A stretch of DNA of 64,000 nt from an uncultured Bacteroidales bacterium (GCA_900321315.1 ONVP01000002.1:272-64271); one strand, 5' to 3'; positions 2 through 12,717 are shown, numbered from the stretch's first letter. Notes: a model not told the origin generated them from the sequence alone. Program-made: numbers and translations.

Positions 2-820
2 GAGCCATACCCTCAGATTGAGCTTCGCATGGCTTGTTTCAAAGGCAAAGACAAAAACATTTTCATTGACAACAAAAGTGAGTCGGGGAATTTCTTTCAC
101 TTGTTGGATGCAGGTGTCGCCTTTTGTTTTAGAAACCTGAAACTTGGTGGAGAAATCATTGGCCTTCAGCGTGATGAAAAGCTTGAAATCCCAATAGAGG
201 CATTGCGCGAAGCCTTAATCAATGCCCTTTGTCACCGTCAATACGAGCGCACCAATGGTTCAGTCAGCCTGGCCATTTATGATGATCGCCTCGAAATCGT
301 CAATCCTGGCAAATTCCCGCCGGAGATTTCCCCTGAAAACATTAAGCAGCCCCACGAGTCTTATCCGTACAACAAAAAGTTGGCACAGTTCCTATACCTC
401 TGTAACTATTTGGAAAAATGGGGTTCGGGAGCACAACGCATAATTGATCTGTGCAACAAGCAAGGCTTGCCCGAACCTAAATGGATTGCTAATAACAGTA
501 CGATAACTATCGTATTCCAGCGCAATAAGGAAGCACAAGTTGATGTCACTACTCATACAGATAAACAAGCAGCAATCGACATGATTGGCGGTAAATTGGC
601 GGTATCTGGTGGTAAATTGGCGGTATCTGGCGGTATCATTGAAAAACTGGCAGATGTATTCCTTTTCGTCAAGGATAATCCGAACTGCAATTCTGAGAAA
701 GTAGCTGCCATGTTGAACAGAGGCAAGTCAACAGCCAGAAACTATCTGCACATTCTTTCCGAACTTGGAATGATAAAGCCACAAGGCACTTTCAAAGACC
801 GCACCTATACAGCCGTATAA
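2..820 (+). CDS. C-terminal part of a RecG-like / AlbA_2(Schlafen)-associated putative ATP-binding transcriptional regulator; 5' end lies outside the window
   Basis: The frame is open from base 2 (EPYPQIELR precedes the listed Met at 29). ALINALCHRQY, SVSLAIYDDRLEIVNPG and LEKWGSGAQRII match the family usually annotated as RecG-related / HATPase_c_4. The C-terminal KSTARNYLHILSELGMIKPQG looks like a winged helix. Confidence 0.7.
   Translation, partial: EPYPQIELRMACFKGKDKNIFIDNKSESGNFFHLLDAGVAFCFRNLKLGGEIIGLQRDEKLEIPIEALREALINALCHRQYERTNGSVSLAIYDDRLEIVNPGKFPPEISPENIKQPHESYPYNKKLAQFLYLCNYLEKWGSGAQRIIDLCNKQGLPEPKWIANNSTITIVFQRNKEAQVDVTTHTDKQAAIDMIGGKLAVSGGKLAVSGGIIEKLADVFLFVKDNPNCNSEKVAAMLNRGKSTARNYLHILSELGMIKPQGTFKDRTYTAV
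587..637 (+). repeat. In-frame 21-bp tandem repeat (2 full units plus a partial) encoding GGKLAVS GGKLAVS GG
   Basis: ggcggtaaattggcggtatct / ggtggtaaattggcggtatct / ggcggtatc read directly; it lies inside the CDS between the conserved core and the C-terminal wHTH. Confidence 0.9.
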
Positions 821-1524
821 TCTAACTGACGGTTTAGCAATATCAACCTCATATCGACCAAGCCGCCGCTGTCATGGTTTTTGCATTGTTTGGGCTTTTA
901 CCCTGCCTGCCCAATGCTGTGCGGTAATGCGGCCTGTCAAAATGTGTCGTCCTCGTTCCTGCGGGCGAACATTTCGCCAGTCCACAACACCGCCCAGCGG
1001 CCGCGCGACGGCCAGCCTCAACTTCTACATCGCCCTGGGCAAGAGTCGTTTTTCAGTTCCAACTGCTTCGTCAATTCGATAGCACGAATAACGAAATCAC
1101 GATAGAACGAAAAAAAACGACAAAGGAAAAACGACACATGCCCAGGGCAGCCACATGTCAAATTGAAAGTCAATACTTCTAAGGAAATCTTATGAAAGGC
1201 CGTCGCGCTTTACCCACAGCTGAAGCATTAACCAGGCAAAAACCCCGCCAGTGGCTAACTCCAACTGTTATCATCGGGCTTTTACTGACTTGAAAGCCTT
1301 CAAAGCCTCACCGTCATTGCGGACTTGATCCGCAATCTCACAAGTCGTTAGCACGATAGTACGTTAGCACATATAACGATACGCACAGCCCTGAAGGGGC
1401 AACACGACATTAACCCGATGCAAGCATAGTGCAGCTTCGGGTAACTGCCCGACGTCCAACCTACCTAATTCAGCGGGAGGGGGAAATCGGTGTTCCCTGC
1501 GTCGCCGCTTCTTGCGCCTGCCTT

Positions 1525-1611
1525 GGTGCTGGCAAGGGTCAAGCCGAGCGGCAATCTGAAAAAATGCTGAGCTTCGTGCGCTTTTTCAGGTTGCCGCCCT
1601 TGCCCGACACC
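1525..1611. other. Extended interrupted hairpin (about 26 bp) inside a GC-rich ORF-poor block
   Basis: Paired by hand. 1550-1563 pairs with 1582-1595 (14 bp, one G-U). 1531-1538 pairs with 1597-1604 (8 bp). 1525-1528 pairs with 1608-1611 (4 bp). The loop is 18 nt. No T-tract follows on either strand. Confidence 0.6.
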
Positions 1612-2178
1612 GCCGCTGCTCTTCGCCGTCCCTCGACAAGCGTTTCGCTGCGCTCCACTGGCGCGGCTCCAGCGAGCGTTTGCGGCTCCAAGGCCAGCCG
1701 CTTTCGTGGCTCCTTGCTCGCTCGGGGCTTTCTTGTCGCCCCCCGAACCCCCAAACGGTTCTCGTACCTCGCAACTTTTTAGCGGGGGTCGCCGCGCCCC
1801 TTTAGTTTTGCGCCCCTGCTTGCGCGTCCGCCCGGCGGTTCCCTTTTCGGAGCGCTAAAGCGCATCTTGTTTCGCCCCCTCATCGTTGCCATCCCATCCC
1901 GCAAGGCTTTCGCTGGTGCCTGCCTCTTCGGGGTCGCCGCCGCAAAAGGCACACCCGCCGCCGCTTCGGATTGTAACCGTGCGCGGACTCCTGTCGGGCG
2001 GGTCGGCCGCGCTGGCGCGAACGGGGCGCAGGGTTTCCCGCTCTGGTGTAGTCCAGTTGCCCTTAGTATCCTCTTTCTCGGCTCTGTTTTTCTCTGTCTT
2101 TAGGCCGCAGGCGCTTTTCCCCCTTAACCTGCTGACCCAACGCGCATCCGTGCCACCGTCACCCCCGACCACCACCCC

Positions 2179-2212
2179 GTAAAACGGTTCAACGGCTGAA
2201 GCCGTCACCGTT
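2179..2212 (-). terminator. Possible second intrinsic terminator downstream of the M15 peptidase operon
   Basis: aacggt..acggc tgaa gccgt..accgtt two-step hairpin (2183-2212), followed on the minus strand by TTTT (plus-strand aaaa at 2179-2182). Confidence 0.4.
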
Positions 2213-2240
2213 CCACCATCAATCCCCTCCAACCACCCAA

Positions 2241-2271
2241 TAAAAAAGCCTTCACCAACTGGCAAAGGCTT
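2241..2271 (-). terminator. Intrinsic terminator of the nuclease/M15 peptidase operon
   Basis: 7-bp stem aagcctt/aaggctt (2246-2252 / 2265-2271) with a 12-nt loop. A T-run follows on the minus strand (plus-strand aaaaa at 2242-2246). It sits 28 nt after the stop at 2299. Confidence 0.5.
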
Positions 2272-2298
2272 CAAAATAAAATGAAAAGAACGAACAGA

Positions 2299-2727
2299 CT
2301 ACTTTAACTCAAAGTGGCTCTTATCGACGAAGGTTTTCCAGTTCCCGCCCCAAACGAGCTTCACATTCATTTCGCTGGCCACCTGAAACATCACTTCGGC
2401 CAAATCTTCAAATCTGGTCCAATCCACCGCCTTGCGGTTCATCGTCAGCGGGTACAAATCCACCGCCTTCCCGATGAGGTGTTTGCTTTTCATCGTGCGT
2501 GACTTTCCCTGCCTCACATACTCGCGCTGCTTTGCTTCGCTCCGCAGCCCTTCCGACACATTGAAAGGAAAAGGACAACGCTTCGCGCACTCAATCACAA
2601 TCGCCGTCAGGCGTTCATCAACGCCTTCCAGCCTCTTTTTCGATAACTCTGACAATTCCATAACTATTTCTCCTTTAGTTTGTTCCGTCCATTCTTCCCC
2701 CTTTGTAAGGGGGGTAGGAGGATTCAT
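2299..2727 (-). CDS. Peptidase M15 family (phage-endolysin-type L-alanyl-D-glutamate / D-Ala-D-Ala peptidase)
   Basis: SEGLRSEAKQREYVRQGKS...SKHLIGKAVDL...VWGGNW...DKSHFEL is the typical M15 (VanY/T5-endolysin-like) metal-binding pattern. No signal peptide. An alternative ATG at 2661 (MELSELSKKRL) is possible. The listed start overlaps the upstream stop by 4 nt. Confidence 0.8.
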   Translation of the reverse strand: MNPPTPLTKGEEWTEQTKGEIVMELSELSKKRLEGVDERLTAIVIECAKRCPFPFNVSEGLRSEAKQREYVRQGKSRTMKSKHLIGKAVDLYPLTMNRKAVDWTRFEDLAEVMFQVASEMNVKLVWGGNWKTFVDKSHFELK

Positions 2728-3365
2728 CGATACGCATCTCTTTCAAATTTGCCTATCTTCCTCCAAACCCAAGGAGCCACAGCCCGCTCGTCGCTCCACA
2801 GGCCGCGTCCGTCCTGTTTCGCTTCGGCTTCCAACGCCGAATAGGTCGGATTGCGGTCATACTCCTTGTAATGCCACGCCAATCCATGCTTCAGCATTTC
2901 AGCCCCGATGTCCTTACCGTCGAGGTAAACCGTCGCAATCCACCGCCCGTACTGGTCGCGCTGTTTCAGCTTCAGTCCTACGGTCTTCCCGCTGATGAGC
3001 CATTGAAGGTGCAGCGTGGCCACATCCCCGTAATACTGCCCTCGCTCCGGCGCGTCGATGCCGTTGATGCGGATTTGGGTCACCATCATCTGTTGCGCCC
3101 ACCATCCGCCTCCGGCGTTCTGGTCGCTCGCCGTGCGGCTACCTCCTCCCGTCGTGATGATGTTCCCCTCGAAGGTGTCGCCGTCAATGACGCGGCTCAC
3201 CTTCATCATAACTTGCTCCTTGTCATTTCCAGAAAGGCACTTCGTTACACTCGTTGCGGTATTTCCCCCTTTGGGGATAGTCAAAAGTCTGCTTTCTTTC
3301 CATTCCCGCTGGCATCCGCAAGAAAGCACAAGAAACGCGATGGCCAGCACCATTAGCTTTTTCAT
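2724..3365 (-). CDS. Secreted thermonuclease (SNase/micrococcal nuclease family) lipoprotein
   Basis: VIDGDTF, INGIDAPERGQYYG, DQYGRWIATVYLDG..GAEMLKHGLAWHY and EAEAKQDGRGLWS are SNase motifs. I trimmed the start to the ATG at 3365, giving MKKLMVLAIAFLVLSCGC (signal plus lipobox). A -7 box lies 24 nt upstream. Confidence 0.85.
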   Translation of the reverse strand: MKKLMVLAIAFLVLSCGCQREWKESRLLTIPKGGNTATSVTKCLSGNDKEQVMMKVSRVIDGDTFEGNIITTGGGSRTASDQNAGGGWWAQQMMVTQIRINGIDAPERGQYYGDVATLHLQWLISGKTVGLKLKQRDQYGRWIATVYLDGKDIGAEMLKHGLAWHYKEYDRNPTYSALEAEAKQDGRGLWSDERAVAPWVWRKIGKFERDAYR

Positions 3366-3388
3366 AATCTTATTGTTTTGATGCTTTG

Positions 3389-3396
3389 CAAAAATA
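3389..3396 (-). promoter_or_regulatory. Bacteroidota-type -7 box (TATTTTTG on minus strand) for the nuclease/M15 operon
   Basis: Plus-strand caaaaata equals minus-strand TATTTTTG and matches TAnnTTTG. It is 24 nt upstream of the ATG at 3365. Confidence 0.45.
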
Positions 3397-3483
3397 CACC
3401 ATCCATCCCGTTTGTCAGCTACGCAAACTAACGCAAAGCGAAGCAACAGAAACCATTGTAACCTATTGTAAATAAAATAGATA

Positions 3484-3491
3484 TACATTTG
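3484..3491 (+). promoter_or_regulatory. Bacteroidota-type -7 box (TACATTTG) for the first tandem paralogue
   Basis: Matches TAnnTTTG and lies 50 nt upstream of the ATG at 3541, in the divergent intergenic region. Confidence 0.45.
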
Positions 3492-3540
3492 CGAAACAAA
3501 ACCAATTAACCTCATTTATTAACTTCTAAATTTCAAGATT

Positions 3541-4209
3541 ATGGGAAAAATCAAGCAAGGAATCCTCGGAGGATTCAAAGGTAAAGTCGGGACGGTCATT
3601 GGCTCCTCTTGGAACGGCATTTCCTACATGAAAGGCCACGCCCAAAACATCAGGAACCCCAAGACCCCCGCACAGATGATTCAACGCGACTTCTTCAAGG
3701 AAGTTCAGGACCTGGCAGGTCAGCTCTCCAACGAGCAGTTGGCTTTCCTCTTTCCTCTAACCCCAAAGAACATGACCCGTCGCAACGCGCTCGCACAGCA
3801 GCTCGCCGCCGACCCCGTCGTCACTGACGATGCAAAGCACGTCGATTTGGCCAACATCACCACCCTCGGCAATGCGCCTACCGCCGACCTGCCGGATGCC
3901 ACCATCATAGCGGCTGGTGAAAACCTGACCATCTCCTGGGACGGCTCCACCGACTACCGCGCCGCCCACTCCGACGAGTTCCCGACCGTCTTTGTGGCCA
4001 ACGTCACCAAAAAGAAGGTCTATCTCGTCAATTCCACTGTGGCCTTCGGCCAATCTGGAAACCAATCGTTCAATGTTGGCCTTTCCGCCTATGGCGAAGC
4101 CACCGACACTTTCTCGGGCTTTCTCCTCTCCACAGGCGCAACTTCTCCTCATTGGCATGGCCACCTTTGCGTTAGCGAGCGTCCTGCCCGCGTCAAGAGG
4201 AACGCCTAA
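3541..4209 (+). CDS. Uncharacterised protein, tandem paralogue 1 of 3 (conserved Gly-rich N-terminus, basic C-terminal tail)
   Basis: MGKIKQGILGGFKGKVGTVIGSSWNGISYMKG... is near-identical at the N-terminus to the ORFs at 4363 and 5065, while the DNA differs mostly at synonymous sites. It has its own terminator at 4232-4259. Confidence 0.8.
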   Translation: MGKIKQGILGGFKGKVGTVIGSSWNGISYMKGHAQNIRNPKTPAQMIQRDFFKEVQDLAGQLSNEQLAFLFPLTPKNMTRRNALAQQLAADPVVTDDAKHVDLANITTLGNAPTADLPDATIIAAGENLTISWDGSTDYRAAHSDEFPTVFVANVTKKKVYLVNSTVAFGQSGNQSFNVGLSAYGEATDTFSGFLLSTGATSPHWHGHLCVSERPARVKRNA

Positions 4210-4231
4210 CAGCGTATTCGCGGACATCCTC

Positions 4232-4259
4232 AAAAGCCGTCCTTACGGGCGGCTTTTTT
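4232..4259 (+). terminator. Intrinsic terminator after paralogue 1
   Basis: aaaagccgtcc ttac gggcggctttt: 11-bp stem including one G-U, tetraloop, then a T-run. Confidence 0.7.
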
Positions 4260-4362
4260 AAGAGATTTCCGGGGCATGGTCAAGTAGGGTTCAAGTCTAT
4301 ACCAACTCCGAGTCAGGTTCGCAAAATCTAAACCAAGTATTAACCAATAAAAATTCTGAATT

Positions 4363-5037
4363 ATGGGAAAAATCAAACAGGGAATCTTAGGCGGATTCAA
4401 AGGAAAAGTGGGAACCGTAATAGGCTCCTCGTGGAACGGCATCGCCTACATGAAAGGCCTTCCGCAATCAGTCAGAAACTCGAAGTCTGCCGCTCAAATC
4501 AAGCAGCGCGACTTCTTCAAGGAGGTGCAGCAAATCGCTAGCCAACTCACTGCCGAGCAGCTTGCCTTCCTGTACCCGTCATCGCCCAAGGGCATGACAC
4601 GACGCAACGCCATCGTCCAGCAGCTTTCTGAAGACCCCATCGTTGAGGCCGACAGCAAACATGTGGACTTGGCAAACCTAAAAACCCTTGGCAACGCGCC
4701 AACGGCAGAGCTGCCAGAGGCATCCTTTTCCGTTGATGGCAACAACCTCGCCATCTCATGGAACGGCGCAAGCGGCTGGCGCACCGACCATGCCGATGAA
4801 TACCCTACCGTATTCGTGGCTAATGTCACCAAGAAAAGAGTGTTCCTCATCAACTCGCCTGTCGCCTTCGGCGCAGCTGGAGAATGGTCATTCATTGTCG
4901 GTCTGTCTGCCTACGGCGAAGCCTCCGACACCTTCAGCGGTTTTCTCCTTTCCACAGGCGCACAAACCGCACAAATCGGCTTCGGAACGATGGGCGTATG
5001 TGAACGCCCTGCCCGTCCACCCAAAAAGAACAACTAA
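4363..5037 (+). CDS. Uncharacterised protein, tandem paralogue 2 of 3
   Basis: Similar to paralogue 1 along its whole length (e.g. KHVDLAN..TLGNAPTA.LP, PTVFVANVTKK.V.L.NS.VAFG, GLSAYGEA.DTFSGFLLSTGA). C-terminal tail is ERPARPPKKNN. Confidence 0.8.
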   Translation: MGKIKQGILGGFKGKVGTVIGSSWNGIAYMKGLPQSVRNSKSAAQIKQRDFFKEVQQIASQLTAEQLAFLYPSSPKGMTRRNAIVQQLSEDPIVEADSKHVDLANLKTLGNAPTAELPEASFSVDGNNLAISWNGASGWRTDHADEYPTVFVANVTKKRVFLINSPVAFGAAGEWSFIVGLSAYGEASDTFSGFLLSTGAQTAQIGFGTMGVCERPARPPKKNN

Positions 5038-5064
5038 ATGTCTAACCCCTAAACAAGTAAAGCA

Positions 5065-5751
5065 ATGGGAAAAATCAAACAAGGAATCCTCGGCGGATTC
5101 AGAGGCAAAGTCGGTACAGTTATCGGCTCCTCATGGAATGGCATTTCTTACATGCGCGGTCAGGCGCAATCTGTCAGAAACGCCAACACACCTGCACAAC
5201 AGGCGCAACGCGCTTTCTTCAAACAAGTTCAGGAACTCACATCGCAACTCTCTGATGAGCAGCTTGCCATGCTGTTCCCGTCGGTCACACGCGGCATGAC
5301 GCGCCGCAACATGCTCACCCGTCAGCTTTCGGCTTGCCACGACTACGCTTCCGATGTCAAAACCTTCAATCTCTCCTTGCTGGAGGGCATCGGCAACGGT
5401 GAGCGCATCGATACGCCAATGCTGACCCTTACGGCTACCTCTATTGGCTCTCCGGCTAATCCAGTGACGGGCATCGTCATCGACCAGACTGTTGTCGCCT
5501 CAATCAACAAACCCGCTTCAGCTTGCTTCTCCGTTGTGGCCTACAACCTGACGCAAAAGAAGATAACCGTTTTCAACACGTCCTTTTCGGACTCCAACGC
5601 CAACCTGACCGTCGAAACAGGCAGCTTTGCCACCGATGGCGACAACATCCGCTGCTATTTGACCTATCAGTATCAGCGGAGAGGTGGTTTCGGCACATTG
5701 TCTATCGCAAATCGCCCTGAGCGCGACAAAGAGAAGAAAAAGAAATCCTAA
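5065..5751 (+). CDS. Uncharacterised protein, tandem paralogue 3 of 3 (divergent C-terminal half)
   Basis: The first ~95 aa align with paralogues 1 and 2 (MGKIKQGILGGFRGKVGTVIGSSWNGISYMRG...MTRRN). The rest is divergent. The tail GGFGTLSIANRPERDKEKKKKS retains the GFGT...RP.R motif. Confidence 0.8.
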   Translation: MGKIKQGILGGFRGKVGTVIGSSWNGISYMRGQAQSVRNANTPAQQAQRAFFKQVQELTSQLSDEQLAMLFPSVTRGMTRRNMLTRQLSACHDYASDVKTFNLSLLEGIGNGERIDTPMLTLTATSIGSPANPVTGIVIDQTVVASINKPASACFSVVAYNLTQKKITVFNTSFSDSNANLTVETGSFATDGDNIRCYLTYQYQRRGGFGTLSIANRPERDKEKKKKS

Positions 5752-5763
5752 AACTTTGCCGCT

Positions 5764-6018
5764 ATGTCACTCTACGAATGGATAACAACGCTCCTTGCGC
5801 CCGTCACAGGCATCGTCACTTGGTTTGCCGCCACGCGCCACCGTCAAAACCAAGTCATCAAGGAGATGCAGCACACCATCTATGAACTGGTCCAAGAGAA
5901 CAAGCGCGTCTATGCGGAACTTACTGAAGCTCGCCGTGAAATCGTCGGGCTTACCGCACAGGTTCGGCAGTTGAACATCGAGAATGAGGAACTGAAACAG
6001 ATGATTGAGAAGCTATGA
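5764..6018 (+). CDS. Small membrane protein: N-terminal TM helix plus coiled coil (holin/i-spanin-like architecture)
   Basis: WITTLLAPVTGIVTWFAA is hydrophobic and is followed by heptad-like ELVQENKRVYAELTEARREIVGLTAQVRQLNIENEELKQMIEKL. Its stop overlaps the next start (ATGA). Confidence 0.6.
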   Translation: MSLYEWITTLLAPVTGIVTWFAATRHRQNQVIKEMQHTIYELVQENKRVYAELTEARREIVGLTAQVRQLNIENEELKQMIEKL

Positions 6019-6482
6019 GAACGCGCATCCTTTTCCTCCTCCTGATGTCGATGGTTATGTGTGCTTGCAACGCGAACCGCAGAGCGCAGCGCCAAATCCG
6101 TAGAATAACGGAACGCTGCCCGGAACTCCACACCGTGCAAGCACACGCCTTCGACACGCTCCTCACGGTCGCGCCCGTGGCCGACAGCGCAGCCATGCCA
6201 CTCCGCCCGCTCCTCGAAGGCCAACCCGTCACGGTCAAGACGAAGCAAGGCACTTTCACCGCGACCGCTACGGATGACAGCCTCACCATCACCTACGAGG
6301 CGCAGCCCGAGCCAATTCATTTCACGGACACGCTGCGCTACGCGCAGGTCGTCATCAGCGAGGAACCGCCAAACAAGAAACCGCCCAATGCCGTTTGGTT
6401 TCTGCTCGGTATGGTGTTGGTGCTTGTGGCTATCCTCGCCTTCGTAATGGCAACCATTATTAAGCAAGTCAAGGCTTCCTGA
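6015..6482 (+). CDS. Lipoprotein with C-terminal TM anchor (unimolecular-spanin-like architecture)
   Basis: MRTRILFLLLMSMVMCAC is a signal plus lipobox-like Cys. The C-terminal AVWFLLGMVLVLVAILAFVMATII is a TM helix. The gene is translationally coupled to the upstream ORF. Confidence 0.6.
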   Translation: MRTRILFLLLMSMVMCACNANRRAQRQIRRITERCPELHTVQAHAFDTLLTVAPVADSAAMPLRPLLEGQPVTVKTKQGTFTATATDDSLTITYEAQPEPIHFTDTLRYAQVVISEEPPNKKPPNAVWFLLGMVLVLVAILAFVMATIIKQVKAS

Positions 6483-6501
6483 CAGGGAGCCTTCCTTTTT
6501 T
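6471..6501 (+). terminator. Intrinsic terminator ending the paralogue/membrane-protein operon
   Basis: aaggcttcc tgaca gggagcctt: 9-bp stem (one G-U) followed by cctttttt. It overlaps the stop codon at 6480-6482. Confidence 0.65.
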
Positions 6502-6925
6502 CTGGCCGTCGCTCGATGGGCGGTATTTCGGCTCTGTTGTAGTGTAATTGTTTATCCAAAATAAGCCAAAGATTGCAGGGGTGCTTCAACCTTTTTTTGT
6601 TGAGCATTACGCAATCTTTGTCTTATTTCGGCTGTAAATTGGGTTGCGTTTTCCCGTTCTCGTTTCTCCGACATCCTCTATTTCCTCCATTTCCGCTTGG
6701 TCAATGAAAACGATTCGGAGGGCTGCCTGCCAGCCAAAGGATGCGGAGATGAGCAACACCTTCTTTATTAAGCTTATAGGCCGCATCCTTCGTCTGTCAG
6801 TCAGGTTCCCATTTTGCCCAAAACGGCGCAAATTATGGTCTTTATGGTTGTTTATCAAAAAGGATTTCGTATCTTTGCATCGCACTTATAATCAAGCATT
6901 TAAGCAGTCCAAATACTTATTTTTA

Positions 6926-6954
6926 ATTTGCAACATATTTGCAACATATCTTTG
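6926..6954 (+). promoter_or_regulatory. 11-bp tandem repeat (atttgcaacat x2 plus a partial) ending in a TATCTTTG -7 box
   Basis: atttgcaacat atttgcaacat atctttg read directly. TATCTTTG (6947-6954) matches TAnnTTTG. The palindrome attgat-t-atcaat follows at 6961-6973. Confidence 0.4.
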
Positions 6955-7027
6955 TATCTAATTGATTATCAATATATCTTAATTTTGAGGAGGTGAAGTA
7001 AGCACTTCTTAAATCACTATCAAAAAA

Positions 7028-7059
7028 GGTGTAATCCGAAAGGGTTACGCCTTTTTTTT
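7028..7059. terminator. Bidirectional-looking intrinsic terminator in a gene-free low-GC stretch
   Basis: ggtgtaatcc gaaa gggttacgcc: 10-bp stem (two G-U). It is flanked by an A6 run upstream and a T8 run downstream. Confidence 0.65.
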
Positions 7060-7321
7060 GTTTTTTCCTCTGATTGAACGGTGTAAGTATGTTGCTGGCA
7101 CTTTTTCCCCTCTCGGTTTTCTCAACGCACACAGGCAATGAAGCCGTCACCCCCGTTGTCAACCCAAGAAAAGGTCAGGTCGCTCCGCAAAGTTCCGCTC
7201 AGTACCTCTATCGTCCCCACCGCTACTCTAATTCAAGAATTTGTACAGCGGCTTCTCCGTAAACTCCGATTTATGTTCATCATTATTCTATGTTTTCTAT
7301 TGATACTTTCGGAATAAAACG

Positions 7322-7329
7322 TAAATTTG
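7322..7329 (+). promoter_or_regulatory. -7 box (TAAATTTG) upstream of the 737-aa ORF
   Basis: Matches TAnnTTTG and lies 80 nt upstream of the ATG at 7409. Confidence 0.4.
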
Positions 7330-7408
7330 CAACTTCACATTTTGTTTGTACAGAAATGGTGATACATGAATGAAATTATAAAATGACATAATTACACTTA
7401 ATTAAACT

Positions 7409-9622
7409 ATGCGAAATTTTGCTATCATTAAAGATTCCCAATATAGTGTTATAGATCAATACCGTCGCTATCTGAACTATGCTGTTAACCATCCTCTTTT
7501 AGATAGAGAGGATGCTGTTTATGATTATAATTTCATGCAGCAATTAGGAGTTCTTCAAGCTGACGAAATACAAAATGTCATCAAAACAAATGGTGATGTG
7601 CTGTATGAAGGAATCAAATACACCAATTCTAATATTCAAGAATTATCCTCTACTATTTCGCATAAAATGGATTATGTAGCCCAAGGCCTTACTTCATCAT
7701 TAGAAAAAGGTTTTACTCAAATGGAGATAGAACTTGGAAAAGCTAATCAGCAATTGTCTAATATCAATAGTAATTTAAGCGATATAGGAAATTCTGTCAC
7801 AAGAGGGTTTTCTGATTTGAGAGCAGGACAGATTCACACTCAAGAATTGTTAGAGGGTTTTAGAAAACAAGTTGGCAAATCTTTTGAATTTGTGATACAA
7901 AAGATTGAATTATCAAATATTTATTTAGCGGCAATCTACCAAGAGATGAAAATTCCAGAGTTCCAAAGAGAAAGACGGTATTATATGGAACAAGGAATAA
8001 AGTATATAAAAATAGCTATTAAAGAAAACGACAAGCTGTATTATGAAGATGCAGTTAATGCCTTTCAGAAAGCAATAGAAATATCACCAGATGATTATTT
8101 TTCATGGTTTTATCTTGGATACATATATCTTAACTCAACATATTTTCTTGATATAAATAAAGCCAAAGAATCATTTGAGCATTACATACACTATGTCCGT
8201 CCAGAAATCGAGTCAAGCAAACAAACTCGTTTAATACATCAATTAGATAGTGTGTATTTATATATGGCTGAAATCTCATATTTAAAAGGAGAGTTAGATG
8301 ATGCTGTCGAATGGACAAACAAATGTGCCCCTAATGAGAAGGTTATATTTTTGAAAGCTAAATATTTATCGGCATCAAGTGATAATTCTCATAAGTGTTA
8401 CATGGCTGCACAACTATTAAAAGAAGTCATTAGCAAAAACCCGTTTTTATCTTTGCAAGTGTTAGAAGATGCTGATTTAATTAGCAATGATAGTGTTATT
8501 ACTATGCTTAATCTATTAAAGAACGAAGCAGTTTCCCGTGCAAAAAGCATAGTTAATGGCATTAAGGCAAAATGTATGGAATATGACGGATTTAGTCAAG
8601 CATTTACTGAAGTATTAAAGATTGAGAAAAACTTACAATCCGAAACATATCTAGAAGCATGTGAAGCAATAAACATTCTTAATAAACGCATGAATTGGGT
8701 TATAAAAAACCATCAATTAAGTTTTACCTCCTCTATTGTCGATTATTGTAATAATTATATCTCTTGTCTTAACAATTTCGTCAATTCAAATAGCAACCTT
8801 CCTATTGGGATATGTGTAAAGTTCCTGAAAATATACGATAAAGTACTAATCATATTTAATGATACAGAAACTCAACGTTGCAAAGAAAAACTATTAAGTT
8901 GTTTCGATAATCTAAAATCCTCTATATTACGTAAATATACAGAGCAATATAATCGTGTTCAATATAGATTAAATGATTTAAAAGATTATACAACGGTTCT
9001 TATGTCTATGTTGTCAATTCTTGAACCATTGAATAAATATATTCCATATTCAGAATCAATTAATTATAAAAACTATAATACCGAAGATTGTGATTTAGAA
9101 ACGAAAACATTTGGCGTTCCAGCATATTTTCGGGATCGGTGCATATCTGCTTTTGAAAACTCAAAAACCAGATTGAGTATTGTTAAATTAGAAATAAATG
9201 CGTTAGTTGAGAAATCACAGTATTTTCAAAATATACTTCAGTTATTAAAATCATGCACATACTTAAATTGTAAATTAAGTTTGTTTTACGATGGACAGGA
9301 TGATACGATTATAGACAATAAAGTTGATGATTTTAATATAATCGAAACACTTACAAAAAAATACCTTGATTATGTAATAGCAATTAGCCATATACCCTCA
9401 TCTGTCCCAAAATATCCTGGCTTTGGCTTTTTAGTCCCTTTTCAATATGCAAGATGGATAGCTGTTTGCAATCGGGCAATGAACAATAACAGAGATTTAA
9501 TTTCTACAGCAAAAGCGGTTAATAAAAAAATGCATACTTTGTATAAGGATTTAAAGCAGCGCAATTTATTATTAACCAACCATATGCACATTCCTTGGTA
9601 TGGCCTCGACGATTGGAATTAG
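7409..9622 (+). CDS. Large orphan protein with N-terminal coiled-coil region and TPR-like repeats; no enzymatic motif recognised
   Basis: A 737-aa uninterrupted ORF in very AT-rich DNA. YYEDAVNAFQKAIEISPDDYFSWFYLGYIYL and ISYLKGELDDAVEWTNKC look like TPR units. The N-terminal 100-190 region is heptad-like. Confidence 0.7.
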   Translation: MRNFAIIKDSQYSVIDQYRRYLNYAVNHPLLDREDAVYDYNFMQQLGVLQADEIQNVIKTNGDVLYEGIKYTNSNIQELSSTISHKMDYVAQGLTSSLEKGFTQMEIELGKANQQLSNINSNLSDIGNSVTRGFSDLRAGQIHTQELLEGFRKQVGKSFEFVIQKIELSNIYLAAIYQEMKIPEFQRERRYYMEQGIKYIKIAIKENDKLYYEDAVNAFQKAIEISPDDYFSWFYLGYIYLNSTYFLDINKAKESFEHYIHYVRPEIESSKQTRLIHQLDSVYLYMAEISYLKGELDDAVEWTNKCAPNEKVIFLKAKYLSASSDNSHKCYMAAQLLKEVISKNPFLSLQVLEDADLISNDSVITMLNLLKNEAVSRAKSIVNGIKAKCMEYDGFSQAFTEVLKIEKNLQSETYLEACEAINILNKRMNWVIKNHQLSFTSSIVDYCNNYISCLNNFVNSNSNLPIGICVKFLKIYDKVLIIFNDTETQRCKEKLLSCFDNLKSSILRKYTEQYNRVQYRLNDLKDYTTVLMSMLSILEPLNKYIPYSESINYKNYNTEDCDLETKTFGVPAYFRDRCISAFENSKTRLSIVKLEINALVEKSQYFQNILQLLKSCTYLNCKLSLFYDGQDDTIIDNKVDDFNIIETLTKKYLDYVIAISHIPSSVPKYPGFGFLVPFQYARWIAVCNRAMNNNRDLISTAKAVNKKMHTLYKDLKQRNLLLTNHMHIPWYGLDDWN

Positions 9623-9643
9623 TTTAATCAATTAGTAAGATCC

Positions 9644-9718
9644 CTTCAGCCGCACATCAGCACCCTCACCAAAGCAAAAACCGTCCGCGCTTCGGCATTC
9701 ATTATCATGATGTTTTGG
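9644..9718 (-). pseudogene. Decayed 3'-end remnant of a small XRE-family HTH gene (repeat copy 1)
   Basis: The minus strand reads ...EARTVFALVRVLMCG*, which aligns to copy 2 (ARTVFALARALGCG...). The core ccaaagcaaaaaccgtccgcgc is identical. A 2-nt indel relative to copy 2 shifts the frame. Confidence 0.5.
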
Positions 9719-9840
9719 CAAGAGGCGAATTTCGTTCAATGAAGAATAAAACCGAAGCGTTATTATTTAGACTTTGTATAAATTAACCTATAAGTTTATT
9801 ATTTTGACAGTAATAGTAGCTTTATTTCAGAAATAAAGTC

Positions 9841-9848
9841 TATTTTTG
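9841..9848 (+). promoter_or_regulatory. -7 box (TATTTTTG) upstream of the HigB-like ORF
   Basis: Matches TAnnTTTG and lies 43 nt upstream of the TTG start at 9891. Confidence 0.45.
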
Positions 9849-9890
9849 CATCGTCAACCGACAAAAGTAAACCTGTAAGTTTATATCGAA

Positions 9891-10445
9891 TTGGAACTAA
9901 TAGCTATATATCCACCATACATCTACAGCGTTCAATATGATGATGTAGAGGAAAACGAATTCGACAGATTGTTCCAACAATGGAATGATTTGGAGTATGT
10001 GACGCAGTTCTTTGAAATTTTTCAAGATTATCTGAAATCCCCAGTTTGGCAAAAAACACCTGAGCCAGAAGATGCTACACTTCAAGTATTGCAAGAAGCT
10101 ACTGATTTAGAAGACCTTTTTGAAGAATTATACAATAACACCAAAAATAGTATTGTAGGAAAAGACTTTGATTCTCATTTTTATTATTTGGATGGAAAAT
10201 ATCAATTTGAGAAGGAACGACCTCCCATGAAATCTTATGGGACAAATCGACCTTCACTACTAAGGATATACGCCATAAAGATGAATACAAACACATACCT
10301 AATAACAGGAGGAGGAATAAAATTGGCTGATACGATACAGAACTCTCCAGATTTAAAAGAGCACGTTTTGAATAACATCGACAAAGTCAGGCAATTCCTC
10401 AAAGCAAATGGCATCATGGATAGTGATGATATGGAAAACAACTAA
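9891..10445 (+). CDS. Putative toxin: RelE/HigB (Gp49/DUF891-like) C-terminal region with a ~110-aa N-terminal extension
   Basis: SLLRIYAIKMNTNTYLITGGGIKLADTIQNSPDLKEHV resembles the RelE/Gp49 core strand-strand-helix. It is followed by an XRE gene in toxin-then-antitoxin order. Only a TTG start is available, because an in-frame stop lies at 9876-9878. Confidence 0.45.
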   Translation: MELIAIYPPYIYSVQYDDVEENEFDRLFQQWNDLEYVTQFFEIFQDYLKSPVWQKTPEPEDATLQVLQEATDLEDLFEELYNNTKNSIVGKDFDSHFYYLDGKYQFEKERPPMKSYGTNRPSLLRIYAIKMNTNTYLITGGGIKLADTIQNSPDLKEHVLNNIDKVRQFLKANGIMDSDDMENN

Positions 10446-10467
10446 TCAACTTAAACAATTTACAATT

Positions 10468-10899
10468 ATGGCATTTAACCCGGAAAAATTGGCCGCATTA
10501 GCCAAACCTCGCAGCGAAGAGGCAAGAGAAAAAGCACGAATCCGAAAGGAAAACCGTAACTGGTTGAGAATGTCCCAGGAAATAGCTCTCTGTCTGCATT
10601 ACTATCTTCGTAAGGCAGGGCTAACTCAAAAAGAGTTGGCAGATAAAATGGGGGTGTCGGCAGTATATGTTGGAAAACTTTTAAAAGGAGGGGAAAACAT
10701 GACCCTTGAAACCATCTGTAAGATTCAGAACGTAATTTGTGAAAACATAGTTGCTATAGCAAAACCGTATGTTAGCACTACAGTAATAAGTTTCCCTTTC
10801 CAGTATAGATTCTCACCCGATGCAATAACTAGCGAAAGATTCTCTGACAATCAATTATCACATGAAAATTATGTACCAATGGCTAACGATGCCGCCTAA
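10468..10899 (+). CDS. XRE-family HTH antitoxin (HigA-like) with a long C-terminal tail
   Basis: GLTQKELADKMGVSAVYVGKLLKGGENMTLETICKI is a canonical XRE HTH. I trimmed the start to the ATG at 10468. About 50 aa of aromatic-rich tail follow the HTH. Confidence 0.8.
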   Translation: MAFNPEKLAALAKPRSEEAREKARIRKENRNWLRMSQEIALCLHYYLRKAGLTQKELADKMGVSAVYVGKLLKGGENMTLETICKIQNVICENIVAIAKPYVSTTVISFPFQYRFSPDAITSERFSDNQLSHENYVPMANDAA

Positions 10900-10911
10900 A
10901 CACTTGAGACA

Positions 10912-11337
10912 ATGGAACCACAAGTAATGTATAGATTTAGCAAAATGGAACTTGAGCAATTTGCCATGTTTGAAGAGAATTGCAATCCAGAACCGAATGA
11001 AGTCCAATTTCATACCGAAGCGCAGTTTTCGTATGACAAAGATAATTACATACTTTGCAGTAAGATTATCGTTAACATGGCATCTCAGGAAAAGCCATTA
11101 GTAAAAGCTGAATTAAAAAGTTATTTCAACCTTTTGCCAGAGTCAGTTGAAAACTTGCGTAAGGACGGTCGTATCATGTTTGCTCCGCATTTGCTAGTCC
11201 AATTTGCATCTTTATGCTATGGCTCAATTCGTGGGGTAATCTTTGCAAAAACAATAGGCACACCTATTAATAATTACGTCTTGCCACCAGTGTATTTTGC
11301 GAATTTGATTGACAAGGGGTTTGTTGTTGAGGATTAA
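10912..11337 (+). CDS. SecB-like chaperone (third component of a TAC-type toxin-antitoxin-chaperone module)
   Basis: It is 141 aa. FAPHLLVQFASLCYGSIRGVIFAKTIGTPINNYVLPPVYFANLI parallels E. coli SecB [36 protein letters not shown]. The N-terminal and middle strands also line up. Confidence 0.55.
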   Translation: MEPQVMYRFSKMELEQFAMFEENCNPEPNEVQFHTEAQFSYDKDNYILCSKIIVNMASQEKPLVKAELKSYFNLLPESVENLRKDGRIMFAPHLLVQFASLCYGSIRGVIFAKTIGTPINNYVLPPVYFANLIDKGFVVED

Positions 11338-11399
11338 TGTTATCAGATGATTATAATAGCGCGATGCATAATTGTGTATCGCGCTATTTTTACTTTGTA

Positions 11400-11609
11400 T
11401 TACCCACAAATCACCTCAGCCCCACACCCCAGCGCCCTCGCCAAAGCAAAAACCGTCCGCGCCTTGGTTTTCATGATGTCTTGGTCGCCTTGCTCGTATG
11501 CCTGGATCATGCGAAGGGTGACGCCCGACAATTCGGCCAGTTCCTTTTGGGTGAAATGGGATTGCTTCCGAATGGTTTTCAGGGATAAAAAACAAAAAAG
11601 GTGTGCAAA
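11400..11609 (-). pseudogene. Near-complete small XRE-family HTH gene lacking a canonical start codon (repeat copy 2)
   Basis: The minus strand reads LSLKTIRKQSHFTQKELAELSGVTLRMIQAYEQGDQDIMKTKARTVFALARALGCGAEVICG*. The frame is open only to 11609, with no ATG/GTG/TTG before the HTH. It may still be expressed from CTG or be 5'-truncated. Confidence 0.55.
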
Positions 11610-11638
11610 TTAAAAAATAATGTGTATTTTTGCACACC
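11600..11638 (+). promoter_or_regulatory. Perfect 10-bp inverted repeat (ggtgtgcaaa / tttgcacacc) overlapping a TATTTTTG -7 box: candidate autoregulated promoter/operator
   Basis: The IR arms are 11600-11609 and 11629-11638. The -7 box is at 11625-11632, 38 nt upstream of the ATG at 11670. Confidence 0.5.
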
Positions 11639-11669
11639 AAATCAAGTCATCAATAAAAAGGGGGTAGTT

Positions 11670-12716: not shown

Positions 12717-12717
12717 T

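What the first reader, a model, noticed from the sequence alone, without database searches (positions are those of the whole stretch)
3541..5751. Three tandem paralogues of an uncharacterised ~225-aa protein with an invariant Gly-rich N-terminus and basic tail
The ORFs at 3541, 4363 and 5065 all start MGKIKQGILGGF(K/R)GKVGTVIGSSWNGI.YM(K/R)G and share about 95 aa of N-terminal similarity. Within this stretch the DNA differs mostly at third positions. This points to old duplicates under purifying selection rather than a recent amplification.

Copies 1 and 2 stay alike to the end. Copy 3 has a different C-terminal half. All three end in a short basic tail: ERPARVKRNA, ERPARPPKKNN and NRPERDKEKKKKS. 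None has a signal peptide, TM segment or catalytic motif.

A conserved N-terminal attachment region with a diversifying C-terminal part and a basic tail would fit a virion, particle or receptor-binding component. I do not recognise a characterised family.

In copy 1 the segment around 4129-4190 reads SPHWHGHLCVS. The +1 frame there reads IGMATFALAS, which is closer to IGFGTMGVC of copy 2. This suggests a compensated double frameshift.
Basis: partly seen in the sequence, partly recalled or inferred. Interest (0 to 1): 0.7.

Follow-up and report, generated by a model that had tools for sequence, protein, structure and literature searches.

The report
DUF6266 protein array beside large RNA
The three tandem genes are real, old, selected copies of an uncharacterised Bacteroidota protein family (DUF6266) that most likely builds a small phage-like particle, and they sit next to cell-lysis genes and a previously undescribed ~660-base folded RNA.

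Summary
ORFs 3541-4209, 4363-5037 and 5065-5751 are three paralogues, and all pass Pfam's threshold for DUF6266 (PF19781). They are old duplicates (dS about 1.5) under purifying selection (dN/dS 0.14-0.3). The compensated frameshift in copy 1 is real.

AlphaFold predicts a disordered basic N-terminal arm, three helices, an Ig/FN3-like sandwich and a basic tail. Nothing known matches this fold.

About 80 ruminant-gut Bacteroidales loci share one module:
- a ~664-nt structured RNA (window 1471-2134, + strand) with strong covariation and no Rfam match;
- an M15 endolysin and a secreted nuclease on the opposite strand;
- 1-5 DUF6266 genes;
- two membrane proteins;
- a tyrosine integrase in some loci, but not in this window.

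Distant DUF6266 paralogue sets also fill the non-replication part of four ~11-11.7 kb phage-like contigs, one clearly circular. They also make up three of the five ORFs of an 8-kb GenBank phage genome with a rolling-circle Rep.

Best reading (confidence about 0.45): these are nucleic-acid-binding structural subunits of a phage-like particle. The window copy sits in an island with no replication genes. Function is inferred, not shown.

The parts
838..1297 (.). Conserved ORF-free segment 'A', directly upstream of the RNA. In other loci it occurs twice, flanking a variable gene.
   Evidence: It is 76-87% identical to L001, L004, L048 and others. Two copies flank a 310-aa gene in L001 and a putAbiC gene in L004. 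It is not present in every locus. Its role is unknown.
1471..2134 (+). Structured noncoding RNA of about 664 nt, closed by a terminal stem. Not in Rfam.
   Evidence: - No long ORF is present, and substitutions show no codon periodicity: 107/106/99 by phase, against 82/73/149 in a coding control.
- It is 73-89% identical to other loci, more than the neighbouring genes in L001.
- The 24-sequence alignment A6 gives 192 pairs, 95.4% of them paired, against 41-47% when the partners are slid.
- 27 pairs changed on both sides, against 7-12 in the slid controls, and 0 of 500 shuffles reach the observed values.
- Many G-U pairs and few A-C pairs place it on the + strand.
- Rfam gives no match at the gathering threshold or at E<=10.
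2299..2727 (-). M15_4 peptidase, endolysin-like
   Evidence: Pfam PF13539, E = 7.7e-11. PHROG 465 'endolysin', E = 1.1e-42. A terminator-like hairpin lies at 2272-2245 on the - strand.
2724..3515 (-). Staphylococcal-type nuclease, probably a lipoprotein that starts at the internal Met (about 3365)
   Evidence: Pfam SNase, E = 5.9e-22. 'MKKLMVLAIAFLVLSC' with a lipobox begins at residue 51. The L004 orthologue is 205 aa.
3484..3491 (+). TAcaTTTG, a match to the Bacteroides -7 promoter consensus TAnnTTTG, about 50 nt upstream of copy 1
   Evidence: Read directly from the sequence. The consensus is from my own knowledge. This is not a test of function.
3541..4209 (+). DUF6266 paralogue 1 (222 aa). 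Positions 4140-4164 are read out of frame because of two compensating deletions.
   Evidence: Pfam PF19781, 55 bits against a cutoff of 23.4. Frameshift shown in alignment A7. dN/dS.
4232..4259 (+). Terminator-like hairpin plus T-run, immediately after paralogue 1
   Evidence: Seen in the sequence. The same hairpin follows the first copy in L001, L004, L005, L013, L016 and L068, with compensatory stem changes. The consensus scan missed it because part of the T-run is paired.
4363..5037 (+). DUF6266 paralogue 2 (224 aa)
   Evidence: Pfam, 53.3 bits. AlphaFold model pLDDT 82, pTM 0.75.
5065..5751 (+). DUF6266 paralogue 3 (228 aa), with a divergent beta-sandwich half and a lysine-rich tail
   Evidence: Pfam, 42.5 bits, N-terminal part only. 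The AlphaFold model has the same architecture, pLDDT 74.6.
5764..6018 (+). 84-aa protein with a hydrophobic N-terminus and a coiled coil (holin-like or i-spanin-like)
   Evidence: Only weak PHROG hits, including a holin family at E = 1.6e-3. It is conserved after the array in L004, L013, L016, L062, L068, L075 and L092. The role is inferred.
6015..6482 (+). 155-aa protein with a lipoprotein-type N-terminus and a C-terminal TM segment, the topology of a unimolecular spanin
   Evidence: Lipobox MCAC at residue 15 and a TM segment at 122-155. A protein of the same topology follows the holin and endolysin in L012. A terminator-like site lies at 6471-6493. The role is inferred.
6468..7000 (.). Conserved ORF-free stretch at the right edge of the module
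   Evidence: 82-83% identical to L001 11427-11941 and L003 1965-2479, even though those loci lack the two membrane-protein genes. A strong terminator-like hairpin lies at 7022-7057.

Best explanation
The three genes encode a heteromeric set of DUF6266 proteins. I read them as nucleic-acid-binding structural subunits of a small phage-like particle.

**Proposed mechanism (inferred, not shown)**
- The conserved, basic, glycine-rich N-terminal arm and the basic C-terminal tail contact nucleic acid or neighbouring subunits.
- The three-helix segment and the Ig-like sandwich form the body of the subunit.
- Paralogue 1 is the abundant subunit, because a terminator-like hairpin follows it.
- Paralogues 2 and 3 are less abundant, specialised subunits.

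**The locus**
- In this window the set belongs to a conserved island module of ruminant-gut Bacteroidales.
- Its parts are a ~664-nt structured RNA, an M15 endolysin, a secreted nuclease, the DUF6266 array and two membrane proteins with holin-like or spanin-like topology.
- This copy has no integrase and no replication genes.
- It is therefore a defective, helper-dependent or domesticated derivative rather than a self-sufficient phage.

**Shown**
- family membership;
- purifying selection;
- the conserved gene order;
- the RNA's covariation;
- the presence of DUF6266 sets in small phage-like genomes.

**Inferred**
- particle formation;
- nucleic-acid binding;
- subunit stoichiometry;
- release by lysis.
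For: **Family and selection**
- All three copies pass Pfam's threshold for DUF6266.
- The family is large: 2062 clusters at 50% identity score E<=0.001.
- Every source name seen is a Bacteroidota organism.
- dN/dS is 0.14-0.30.

**Small phage-like genomes**
- Four independent contigs of about 11.0-11.7 kb share synteny (L009, L010, L097, L098). L009 has a 30-nt terminal overlap.
- Each carries a replication-initiation-like protein, DUF3127, an Amidase_2 endolysin, a small integrase-like protein and 3-4 DUF6266-like paralogues.
- GenBank OP209177.1 is an 8-kb 'complete genome' deposited as a bacteriophage. Three of its five ORFs are DUF6266-like (9e-26, 3.7e-10, 1.3e-6). The other two are a rolling-circle Rep (PF23343) and a PAPS reductase.
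- If these replicons are encapsidated, DUF6266 proteins are the only evident candidates for structural proteins.

**Lysis genes next to the array**
- In the window the array is flanked by an M15 endolysin and by membrane proteins.
- In the IMG/VR fragment L012, DUF6266 is followed by Phage_holin_4_1, an endolysin-like protein and a lipoprotein with a TM segment.

**Conserved module**
- The same order, with 1-5 copies, recurs across about 80 loci.
- An integrase lies at the end in L004, L016, L068 and L075.

**Protein features**
- The model has a disordered basic arm and a basic tail.
- Some relatives end in 'ERPARQGRNPRTGQ', which resembles the HU/IHF DNA-binding arm, and carry weak PF00216 hits.

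**Expression signal**
- The hairpin after copy 1 is conserved with compensatory changes.
Against: - No particle, virion proteome or expression data exist.
- The predicted fold matches no known capsid, tail or fibre protein. The best Foldseek hits are generic FN3/Ig domains at E>=1e-3 and TM-scores <=0.55.
- The family is almost absent from virus collections. There are no PHROG hits. The GenBank phage set gives one weak match. IMG/VR gives one 4.3-kb fragment.
- The window and the other chromosomal islands share only the DUF6266 genes with the small genomes, plus the RNA in the case of L010. They lack Rep and DUF3127.
- Many loci keep the RNA and the DUF6266 genes but have lost the lysis genes (L001, L005-L008, L025, L027, L030).
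- In other Bacteroidota the gene can be solitary among housekeeping or defence genes. This fits a cellular or element-maintenance role as well as it fits a virion role.
- Copy 1 in this window has lost a conserved C-terminal motif.
Confidence: 0.45

Rival explanations
1. DUF6266 proteins are dedicated protein partners of the adjacent large structured RNA. Together they form a ribonucleoprotein that coats, chaperones or cages the RNA. Its function is not virion formation. It could serve element maintenance, regulation or a host-beneficial role.
For: - The RNA and the array are linked in the same orientation. Of 26 loci found through the RNA motif alone with at least 4 kb downstream, 17 have the array. 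Four more break off at M15-SNase.
- Reduced loci retain exactly the RNA plus the DUF6266 genes while losing the lysis genes.
- In L010 the RNA lies directly upstream of a DUF6266-like gene.
- ORF-free regions upstream of DUF6266 genes in other lineages fold better than shuffles: z = -5.3 for L009, -6.3 for L041 and -3.7 for L040.
- The proteins have a basic arm and a basic tail.
Against: - Five of the 26 loci have the RNA without a nearby array.
- L039 has an array, and L036 a single gene, with no room for a large RNA upstream.
- L009, L097 and L098 carry a non-homologous noncoding region in place of this RNA.
- No binding has been shown.
- The reading overlaps with the particle hypothesis rather than excluding it.
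Confidence: 0.2
2. They are HU-like, nucleoid-associated or regulatory DNA-binding proteins of mobile elements. Their role would be genome compaction, replication or integration assistance, or exclusion. They would not be structural shell subunits.
For: - The C-terminal 'GFG(T/S)(M/F)...R.A(R/K)..GRN(P.TG)' motif resembles the HU/IHF beta-arm.
- Weak PF00216 hits are recorded for many relatives.
- An 'RNPKT' motif is present near the N-terminus.
- The genes occur on integrative elements and in defence islands.
Against: - None of the window's three proteins hits PF00216.
- A large subgroup of the family lacks the tail altogether (alignment A2).
- The body of the protein is three helices plus an Ig-like sandwich, not an HU fold.
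- Arrays of 2-5 paralogues with a terminator after the first are unusual for regulators.
Confidence: 0.12
3. They are cargo proteins released by the lysis cassette, such as adhesins, bacteriocin-like agents or public-goods proteins. The Ig-like domain would act outside the cell.
For: - The genes adjoin an endolysin, membrane proteins and a secreted nuclease.
- The Ig/FN3-like sandwich diverges between paralogues.
- The proteins have no signal peptide, so lysis would be the way out.
Against: - The most conserved part is the N-terminal arm, not a surface domain.
- The family occurs in 8-12 kb Rep-encoding genomes, where such cargo would be an odd majority of the coding capacity.
- Many loci lack lysis genes.
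- No toxin or enzyme domain is present.
Confidence: 0.06
4. They are components of an anti-phage defence system carried in defence islands.
For: - Neighbours in some loci are defence genes. L004 has putAbiC. L040 has GmrSD, pAgo, AbiEii, restriction-modification genes and McrBC. L001 has HSP70 and UvrD-like genes.
Against: - PADLOC gives no match.
- No enzymatic domain is present.
- The conserved partners are lysis genes and an RNA, not sensors or effectors of known kinds.
- The defence genes look like variable cargo inserted next to the module.
Confidence: 0.05

Closest known systems
Pfam PF19781 (DUF6266), named 'DUF6266 family protein' by NCBI
   Same: All three proteins score above the curated cutoff. 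The alignment covers nearly the full model for copies 1 and 2. Relatives from Flavobacterium, Draconibacterium, Marinifilum, Gaoshiqia and Mangrovibacterium carry this name.
   Different: The family entry carries no function, structure or context. Copy 3 matches only the N-terminal 45 residues of the model. The tail-bearing rumen clade and the 'MKTQNP...' clade of the small genomes are only 23-33% identical to the tail-less members.
Multi-paralogue capsid protein sets of small non-tailed phages, for example the two single-jelly-roll major capsid proteins of Sphaerolipoviridae, and the double-jelly-roll proteins of the Bacteroidota ssDNA phages FLiP and PhiCjT23 (own knowledge; PMC9719478 was listed but not read)
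   Same: Both involve small temperate genomes with a Rep, an endolysin and a few small paralogous late proteins, in Bacteroidota hosts. In both, several related subunits are encoded side by side.
   Different: The predicted fold is not a jelly roll. No packaging ATPase was detected. No sequence similarity to any deposited phage was found, apart from OP209177. A capsid role is not demonstrated.
HU/IHF family (PF00216)
   Same: The C-terminal motif GFGxF/M...RxAR..GRNPxTG of some relatives reproduces the first strand and the ascending half of the HU/IHF DNA-binding arm.
   Different: Only about 20 residues are alike. The window's proteins do not hit PF00216. The rest of the protein has a different predicted fold. 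Many family members lack the tail.
ROOL and GOLLD large ornate RNAs of phages and prophages (for the neighbouring RNA)
   Same: The size is similar: ROOL env-120 from cow rumen is 659 nt. Both are elaborate multi-helix structures supported by covariation, and both are carried on phage-like elements. ROOL and GOLLD functions are unknown (PMC12286853).
   Different: The RNA matches neither the ROOL nor the GOLLD models, nor any other Rfam 15 family, even at E<=10. It is linked to a specific protein family and to lysis genes rather than to tRNA islands; no tRNA is present in the window. ROOL has no known protein partner. Multimerisation was not tested.
Phage lysis cassettes (holin, endolysin, spanin)
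   Same: An M15 endolysin (PHROG 465) is present. So are a small protein with a hydrophobic N-terminus and coiled coil, and a lipoprotein with a C-terminal TM segment, which is the topology of a unimolecular spanin (own knowledge). These lie next to the array. A canonical holin and endolysin occupy the same position in L012.
   Different: The endolysin is transcribed divergently and is paired with a secreted nuclease. The holin and spanin roles of the 84-aa and 155-aa proteins rest on topology only. Many related loci have lost these genes.

Membership tests
Pfam DUF6266 (PF19781) | Score at or above the curated gathering cutoff (23.4 bits) for the whole protein | tested here: met
   55.0, 53.3 and 42.5 bits for copies 1, 2 and 3.
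Pfam DUF6266 (PF19781) | Conserved N-terminal motif (G..GILGGF.GK.G.V.G..W.G) and the invariant Q45, R49 and F52 shared with family members | tested here: met
   These are invariant or nearly invariant columns in alignments A2 (37 sequences) and A4 (94 sequences).
HU/IHF DNA-binding proteins (PF00216) | Pfam match above the family cutoff, and an HU-type alpha/beta dimerisation fold | tested here: not met
   The three window proteins have no PF00216 hit at E<=0.01. The model shows three helices plus an Ig-like sandwich. Only a C-terminal motif of about 20 residues resembles the arm.
Jelly-roll (single or double) major capsid proteins | An eight-stranded jelly-roll fold recognisable by structure comparison | tested here: not met
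   No jelly-roll capsid appears among significant Foldseek matches in PDB or BFVD. The best hits are FN3/Ig domains at E>=1e-3.
HK97-fold capsid proteins, and tail tube or fibre proteins of tailed phages | Sequence or fold similarity to known head or tail proteins | tested here: not met
   No PHROG hit. No PDB sequence hit below E = 0.49. Foldseek hits to tail proteins are non-significant: E 0.005-0.14, TM-score <=0.26.
Virion structural protein (functional class) | Detected in purified particles, or shown to self-assemble | not testable with these tools
   Only context evidence is available.
Known anti-phage defence systems (PADLOC-DB 2.0) | Match to a defence protein model | tested here: not met
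   The three paralogues have no hits.
ROOL, GOLLD or any other Rfam family (for the RNA at 1471-2134) | Covariance-model match at the gathering score | tested here: not met
   The window gives no match at the gathering threshold. Window 700-3600 and L016 1300-2300 give no relevant match at E<=10.
Structured noncoding RNA (generic) | No coding signal, and base pairs maintained by compensatory changes beyond the controls | tested here: met
   No codon periodicity, p = 0.83. 95.4% of cells are paired, against 41-47% when slid. 27 covarying pairs against 7-12 when slid. 0 of 500 shuffles reach the observed values.
Self-sufficient prophage | Integrase, replication and morphogenesis modules present in the element | tested here: not met
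   The window has no homologue of the L004 integrase. Neither the window nor the other islands have a homologue of the Rep or DUF3127 of the small genomes.

The most novel reading that the evidence does not exclude
The ~664-nt ornate RNA and the DUF6266 paralogues together build a new kind of ribonucleoprotein or virus-like particle. The shell protein fold (basic arm, three helices, Ig-like sandwich) would be unrelated to any known capsid lineage. The particle would be released by its own lysis cassette. The 8-12 kb Rep-encoding genomes would then be an undescribed virus lineage, and the chromosomal islands would be its satellite or domesticated derivatives. This would also be the first large ornate bacterial RNA of this kind with a dedicated, genetically linked protein partner outside the OLE system.
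Probability: 0.2. Interest if true: 0.92.

Novelty: new variant of a known kind. Interest (0 to 1): 0.75.

Why it matters
**If DUF6266 proteins are particle subunits**
- They would define a capsid-like protein lineage that sequence and fold searches do not connect to any known virus.
- Small non-tailed phage-like elements of gut and rumen Bacteroidota would then have been invisible to virus-detection pipelines. Only one IMG/VR fragment and one GenBank record carry the family.

**Independently of that**
- The locus yields a large structured RNA class with strong covariation and no Rfam match.
- It is tightly linked to a protein family and to lysis genes.
- Large ornate phage RNAs such as ROOL and GOLLD still have no known function or protein partner. 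A class with an obvious candidate partner makes that question directly testable by co-expression, pull-down and cryo-EM.

Tried and rejected
**Searches that found nothing useful**
- PHROGs, NCBIfam and PADLOC gave nothing for the three proteins.
- A PDB sequence search with the profile gave only noise, best E = 0.49.
- Foldseek of both models against PDB, and of the copy 2 model against BFVD, gave only generic FN3/Ig similarity.
- tblastn against 50,697 phage records found no match for copy 2 and one weak match for a distant member. PLSDB plasmids gave no match.
- Four IMG/VR scans gave a single 4.3-kb fragment.
- Literature searches for DUF6266, for the GenBank accession and for similar RNAs found nothing specific.

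**Ideas considered and dropped**
- The ORF-free region as a recoded or frameshifted gene. It shows no codon periodicity, and it has stops in all six frames.
- A double-glycine leader peptide ('MGKIKQGILGG|F'). The leader would be too short, and no C39 transporter gene was seen among the listed neighbours. This rests on reading and was not tested further.
- A filamentous-phage reading of the G2P-type Rep genome. No Zot-like ATPase was annotated or detected, and related elements carry lysis genes.
- The RNA being ROOL. The size and habitat are similar, but no covariance-model match was found.

**Inconclusive**
- RNAalifold energies alone did not separate the two strands. The strand call rests on the excess of G-U over A-C pairs.
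Full report
**1.

The window has three same-strand ORFs at 3541-4209, 4363-5037 and 5065-5751, of 222, 224 and 228 aa.
- Their first 32 residues are almost identical.
- Copies 1 and 2 are 68% identical throughout.
- Copy 3 is 43% identical, mostly within residues 1-95 (alignment A1).

The duplicates are old and under purifying selection.
- Over residues 1-95, copies 1 and 2 differ at codon positions 1, 2 and 3 by 21, 10 and 47 sites.
- Full-length dN/dS is 0.14, with dS of 1.56.
- Each copy compared with its orthologues in two other loci gives dN/dS of 0.17-0.30.

A hydropathy scan finds no TM segment or lipobox. The N-terminal 50 residues carry a net charge of +7 to +8, and the last 15 carry +3 to +4.

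The suspected compensated frameshift is real.
- Against copy 2 and four orthologues, copy 1 lacks 2 nt after position 4139 and 1 nt after position 4164 (alignment A7).
- Positions 4140-4164 are therefore read out of frame.
- The conserved 'ALVGFGTMG' becomes 'TSPHWHGHLC'.

**2. Family and fold**

All three proteins exceed Pfam's cutoff for DUF6266 (PF19781), with 55, 53 and 42.5 bits against 23.4. PHROGs, NCBIfam, PADLOC and PDB sequences give no hits. No paper in the library mentions the family.

The family is large. It has 1444 relatives at 90% clustering. At 50% clustering, 2062 clusters score E<=0.001. Every source name seen is a Bacteroidota organism.

An alignment of diverse members (A2) shows three things.
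- The N-terminal motif is the most conserved part.
- G10, Q45 and G110 are invariant, and R49 and F52 nearly so.
- One large subgroup lacks the C-terminal 'GFG...RP' tail.

AlphaFold2 models were built for two copies.

| Copy | Sequences in alignment | pLDDT | pTM |
|---|---|---|---|
| 2 | 94 | 82 | 0.75 |
| 3 | 72 | 74.6 | 0.64 |

Both models show the same plan:
- residues 1 to about 32 disordered;
- helices at 43-59, 64-70 and 80-89;
- an eight- to nine-strand beta-sandwich.

Foldseek against PDB and BFVD returns nothing at E<=0.001. The hits are generic FN3/Ig domains, with no jelly-roll, HK97, tube or fibre fold.

Some relatives end in 'GFGTMGVNERPARQGRNPRTGQ' or 'GFGSFIIKTRPEKKGRN'. These carry weak PF00216 hits. 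The motif copies the ascending half of the HU/IHF DNA-binding arm (own knowledge of HU/IHF). This is a lead for nucleic-acid binding, not evidence of family membership. The window proteins do not hit PF00216.

**3. The neighbourhood is a conserved module**

Immediately upstream, on the opposite strand, lie two genes.
- An M15_4 peptidase at 2299-2727, matching PHROG 465 'endolysin' at 1e-42.
- A staphylococcal-type nuclease at 2724-3515. Its probable start gives a lipoprotein signal.

Downstream, on the same strand, lie two more.
- An 84-aa protein with a hydrophobic N-terminus and a coiled coil.
- A 155-aa protein with a lipobox and a C-terminal TM segment. This is the topology of a unimolecular spanin (own knowledge).

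L004 repeats this order exactly and ends with a 500-aa tyrosine integrase.

In the single IMG/VR fragment that carries the family (L012), DUF6266 is followed by three genes:
- a Phage_holin_4_1 protein;
- an endolysin-like protein (PHROG 873, 9e-38);
- a lipoprotein with a C-terminal TM segment.

A terminator-like hairpin follows the first paralogue (4232-4259). It is conserved with compensatory stem changes in six other loci. This suggests that the first copy is the abundant product.

**4. An unannotated structured RNA belongs to the module**

Window 820-2300 has no long ORF. Even so, it is more conserved than the genes:
- 89% over 744 nt with L001, where the DUF6266 region is 80% identical;
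- 81-87% with L004 and L005;
- 73% over 411 nt with the 11.4-kb contig L010.

An exact 23-nt motif from this stretch recovered 23 loci from species-representative genomes. All are ruminant-gut Bacteroidales MAGs. It also recovered 55 metagenome contigs.

The 24-sequence alignment A6 folds into a closed multi-helix structure. With my RNAalifold structure, the counts are as follows.

| Measure | Observed | Slid controls |
|---|---|---|
| Cells forming a standard pair | 95.4% of 192 pairs | 41-47% |
| Pairs changed on both sides | 27 | 7-12 |
| Cells with such changes | 144 | 13-39 |
| Covariation score | 0.113 | <=0.045 |

None of 500 shuffles reaches the observed values.

Further properties:
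- Several helices show three or four pair types per position. The helix at columns 165-175 paired with 224-234 is one example.
- G-U pairs are abundant and A-C cells are rare, so the + strand, the strand of the DUF6266 genes, is the folded one.
- Variable columns show no codon periodicity: 107/106/99 by phase, p = 0.83, against 82/73/149 in a coding control.
- In window coordinates the element spans about 1471-2134, or 664 nt.
- Rfam 15 has no match at the gathering threshold or at E<=10.

ROOL is of similar size (659 nt for a cow-rumen example) and is phage-borne. It has no known protein partner (PMC12286853). This RNA does not match the ROOL model.

**5. Architecture across loci**

The recurring order is:
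1. the RNA (+ strand);
2. an optional inserted cargo of up to about 10 kb;
3. M15 and the nuclease (- strand);
4. one to five DUF6266 genes (+ strand);
5. the 84-aa and 155-aa genes (+ strand);
6. an integrase (- strand) in L004, L016, L068 and L075.

Twenty-six loci found by the RNA motif alone have at least 4 kb downstream.
- 17 have the array.
- 4 more break off at M15-nuclease.
- 5 lack the array.

One MAG, RUG14714, has a full locus (L015) and a solo RNA locus (L026).

Several loci have lost the lysis genes but keep the RNA and intact DUF6266 genes (L001, L005-L008, L025, L027, L030). Some retain a nuclease gene fragment.

The window has neither the integrase nor any replication gene of the small genomes.

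**6. Small phage-like genomes**

A distant DUF6266 clade, about 29% identical, lies on contigs of 11.0-11.7 kb from four independent assemblies (L009, L010, L097, L098).
- They are syntenic and almost entirely one-stranded.
- L009 has a 30-nt terminal overlap, which indicates a circle.

They encode:
- DUF3127;
- a replication-initiation-like protein (PHROG 20614);
- a PHROG 6247 protein in L009 (no such gene was called in L010);
- an Amidase_2 endolysin;
- a small integrase-like protein.

With a family HMM, three to four of their ORFs are DUF6266-like. L010 carries the window-type RNA directly upstream of one of them.

L009, L097 and L098 carry a different noncoding region at that position. 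It is 82-89% conserved among the three and folds with z = -5.3.

GenBank OP209177.1 is deposited as a complete 8,038-bp bacteriophage genome with five annotated ORFs.
- Three are DUF6266-like (9e-26, 3.7e-10, 1.3e-6).
- One is a rolling-circle Rep (PF23343).
- One is a PAPS reductase.

If these replicons are encapsidated, DUF6266 proteins are the only visible candidates for structural proteins.

**7. Elsewhere in Bacteroidota**

- The gene occurs as an array of four next to housekeeping genes (L039).
- It occurs with a KilA-N gene (L036).
- It occurs as a solitary gene in L040, inside a defence island, and in L041.
- In L040 and L041 it follows a roughly 1.3-kb C-rich ORF-free region. These regions fold better than shuffles, with z = -3.7 and -6.3.
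- The z-scores rest on 20 shuffles each and are only suggestive.

**8. Interpretation**

Shown:
- membership of DUF6266;
- ancient, selected paralogy;
- a conserved module with lysis genes and a covarying RNA;
- DUF6266 sets in small Rep-encoding genomes.

Inferred:
- the proteins are nucleic-acid-binding structural subunits of a phage-like particle;
- copy 1 is the major species;
- the window copy belongs to an island that cannot replicate or integrate by itself.

I put this reading at about 0.45. The main rival, at 0.2, is that the proteins are partners of the RNA in a non-virion ribonucleoprotein. An HU-like DNA-binding role (0.12), lysis-released cargo (0.06) and defence (0.05) are weaker.

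The chief arguments against the particle reading are these:
- no known capsid fold;
- near-absence of the family from virus collections, which could also reflect detection bias;
- many loci without lysis genes.

**9. Novelty**

The proteins themselves are members of a catalogued but uncharacterised family. The module as a whole, a large RNA plus a DUF6266 array plus lysis genes, matches no described system that I could find.

Noticed in passing
window 1471-2134 (+): A structured RNA of about 664 nt with strong covariation and no Rfam match. It is linked to DUF6266 arrays in about 80 ruminant-gut Bacteroidales loci and in one 11.4-kb phage-like contig.
   Followed up: yes
window 838-1297: An ORF-free segment 76-87% identical to other loci. 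In L001 and L004 it occurs twice, flanking a variable gene (a 310-aa unknown protein, or putAbiC). It looks like a cassette boundary or a shared leader. It is absent from some loci.
   Followed up: partly
window 6468-7057: An ORF-free stretch 82-83% identical to L001 and L003, even though those loci lack the two upstream membrane-protein genes. It ends in a strong terminator-like hairpin at 7022-7057. It may be the conserved right edge of the module.
   Followed up: no
window 7000-13233: A low-GC block (0.31-0.42, against about 0.52 elsewhere). It holds a 737-aa TPR protein (7409-9622), an HTH_3 protein (10408-10899) and an HTH plus Peptidase_M78 (ImmA/IrrE-like) protein (11601-12716). It occupies the position where related loci carry the integrase.
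   Followed up: no
window 29-820 (+): A HATPase_c_4 protein with a winged-helix domain. It gives weak PADLOC hits to pAgo-associated and CARF-type models. It may be defence-island cargo at the left edge of the window.
   Followed up: no
window 2724-3515 (-): The nuclease ORF as listed starts 50 codons too early. The internal start 'MKKLMVLAIAFLVLSC' gives a lipoprotein signal and a length close to that of the L004 orthologue (213 vs 205 aa).
   Followed up: partly
L009 9851-11100; L097 3169-4354; L098 10049-11006: A second ORF-free, GC-rich region, 82-89% conserved among three small genomes. It folds with z = -5.3. It sits where L010 carries the window-type RNA but is not homologous to it. It may be an alternative large RNA.
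   Followed up: partly
L040 8717-10000; L041 8692-10000: Solitary DUF6266 genes in other Bacteroidota are preceded by C-rich ORF-free regions of about 1.3 kb, which fold with z = -3.7 and -6.3. The two regions share a 156-nt stretch at 77% identity just upstream of the start codon.
   Followed up: partly
L010 1-22: The contig begins with Illumina adapter sequence (CAGACGTGTGCTCTTCCGATCT). This may mark a physical DNA end or nick at that genome position, or it may be an assembly artefact.
   Followed up: no
L032, L055, L066 (between the RNA and M15): The gap between the RNA and the M15-nuclease pair varies from about 0.2 kb to more than 10 kb. The site looks like an insertion hotspot for cargo genes.
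   Followed up: no
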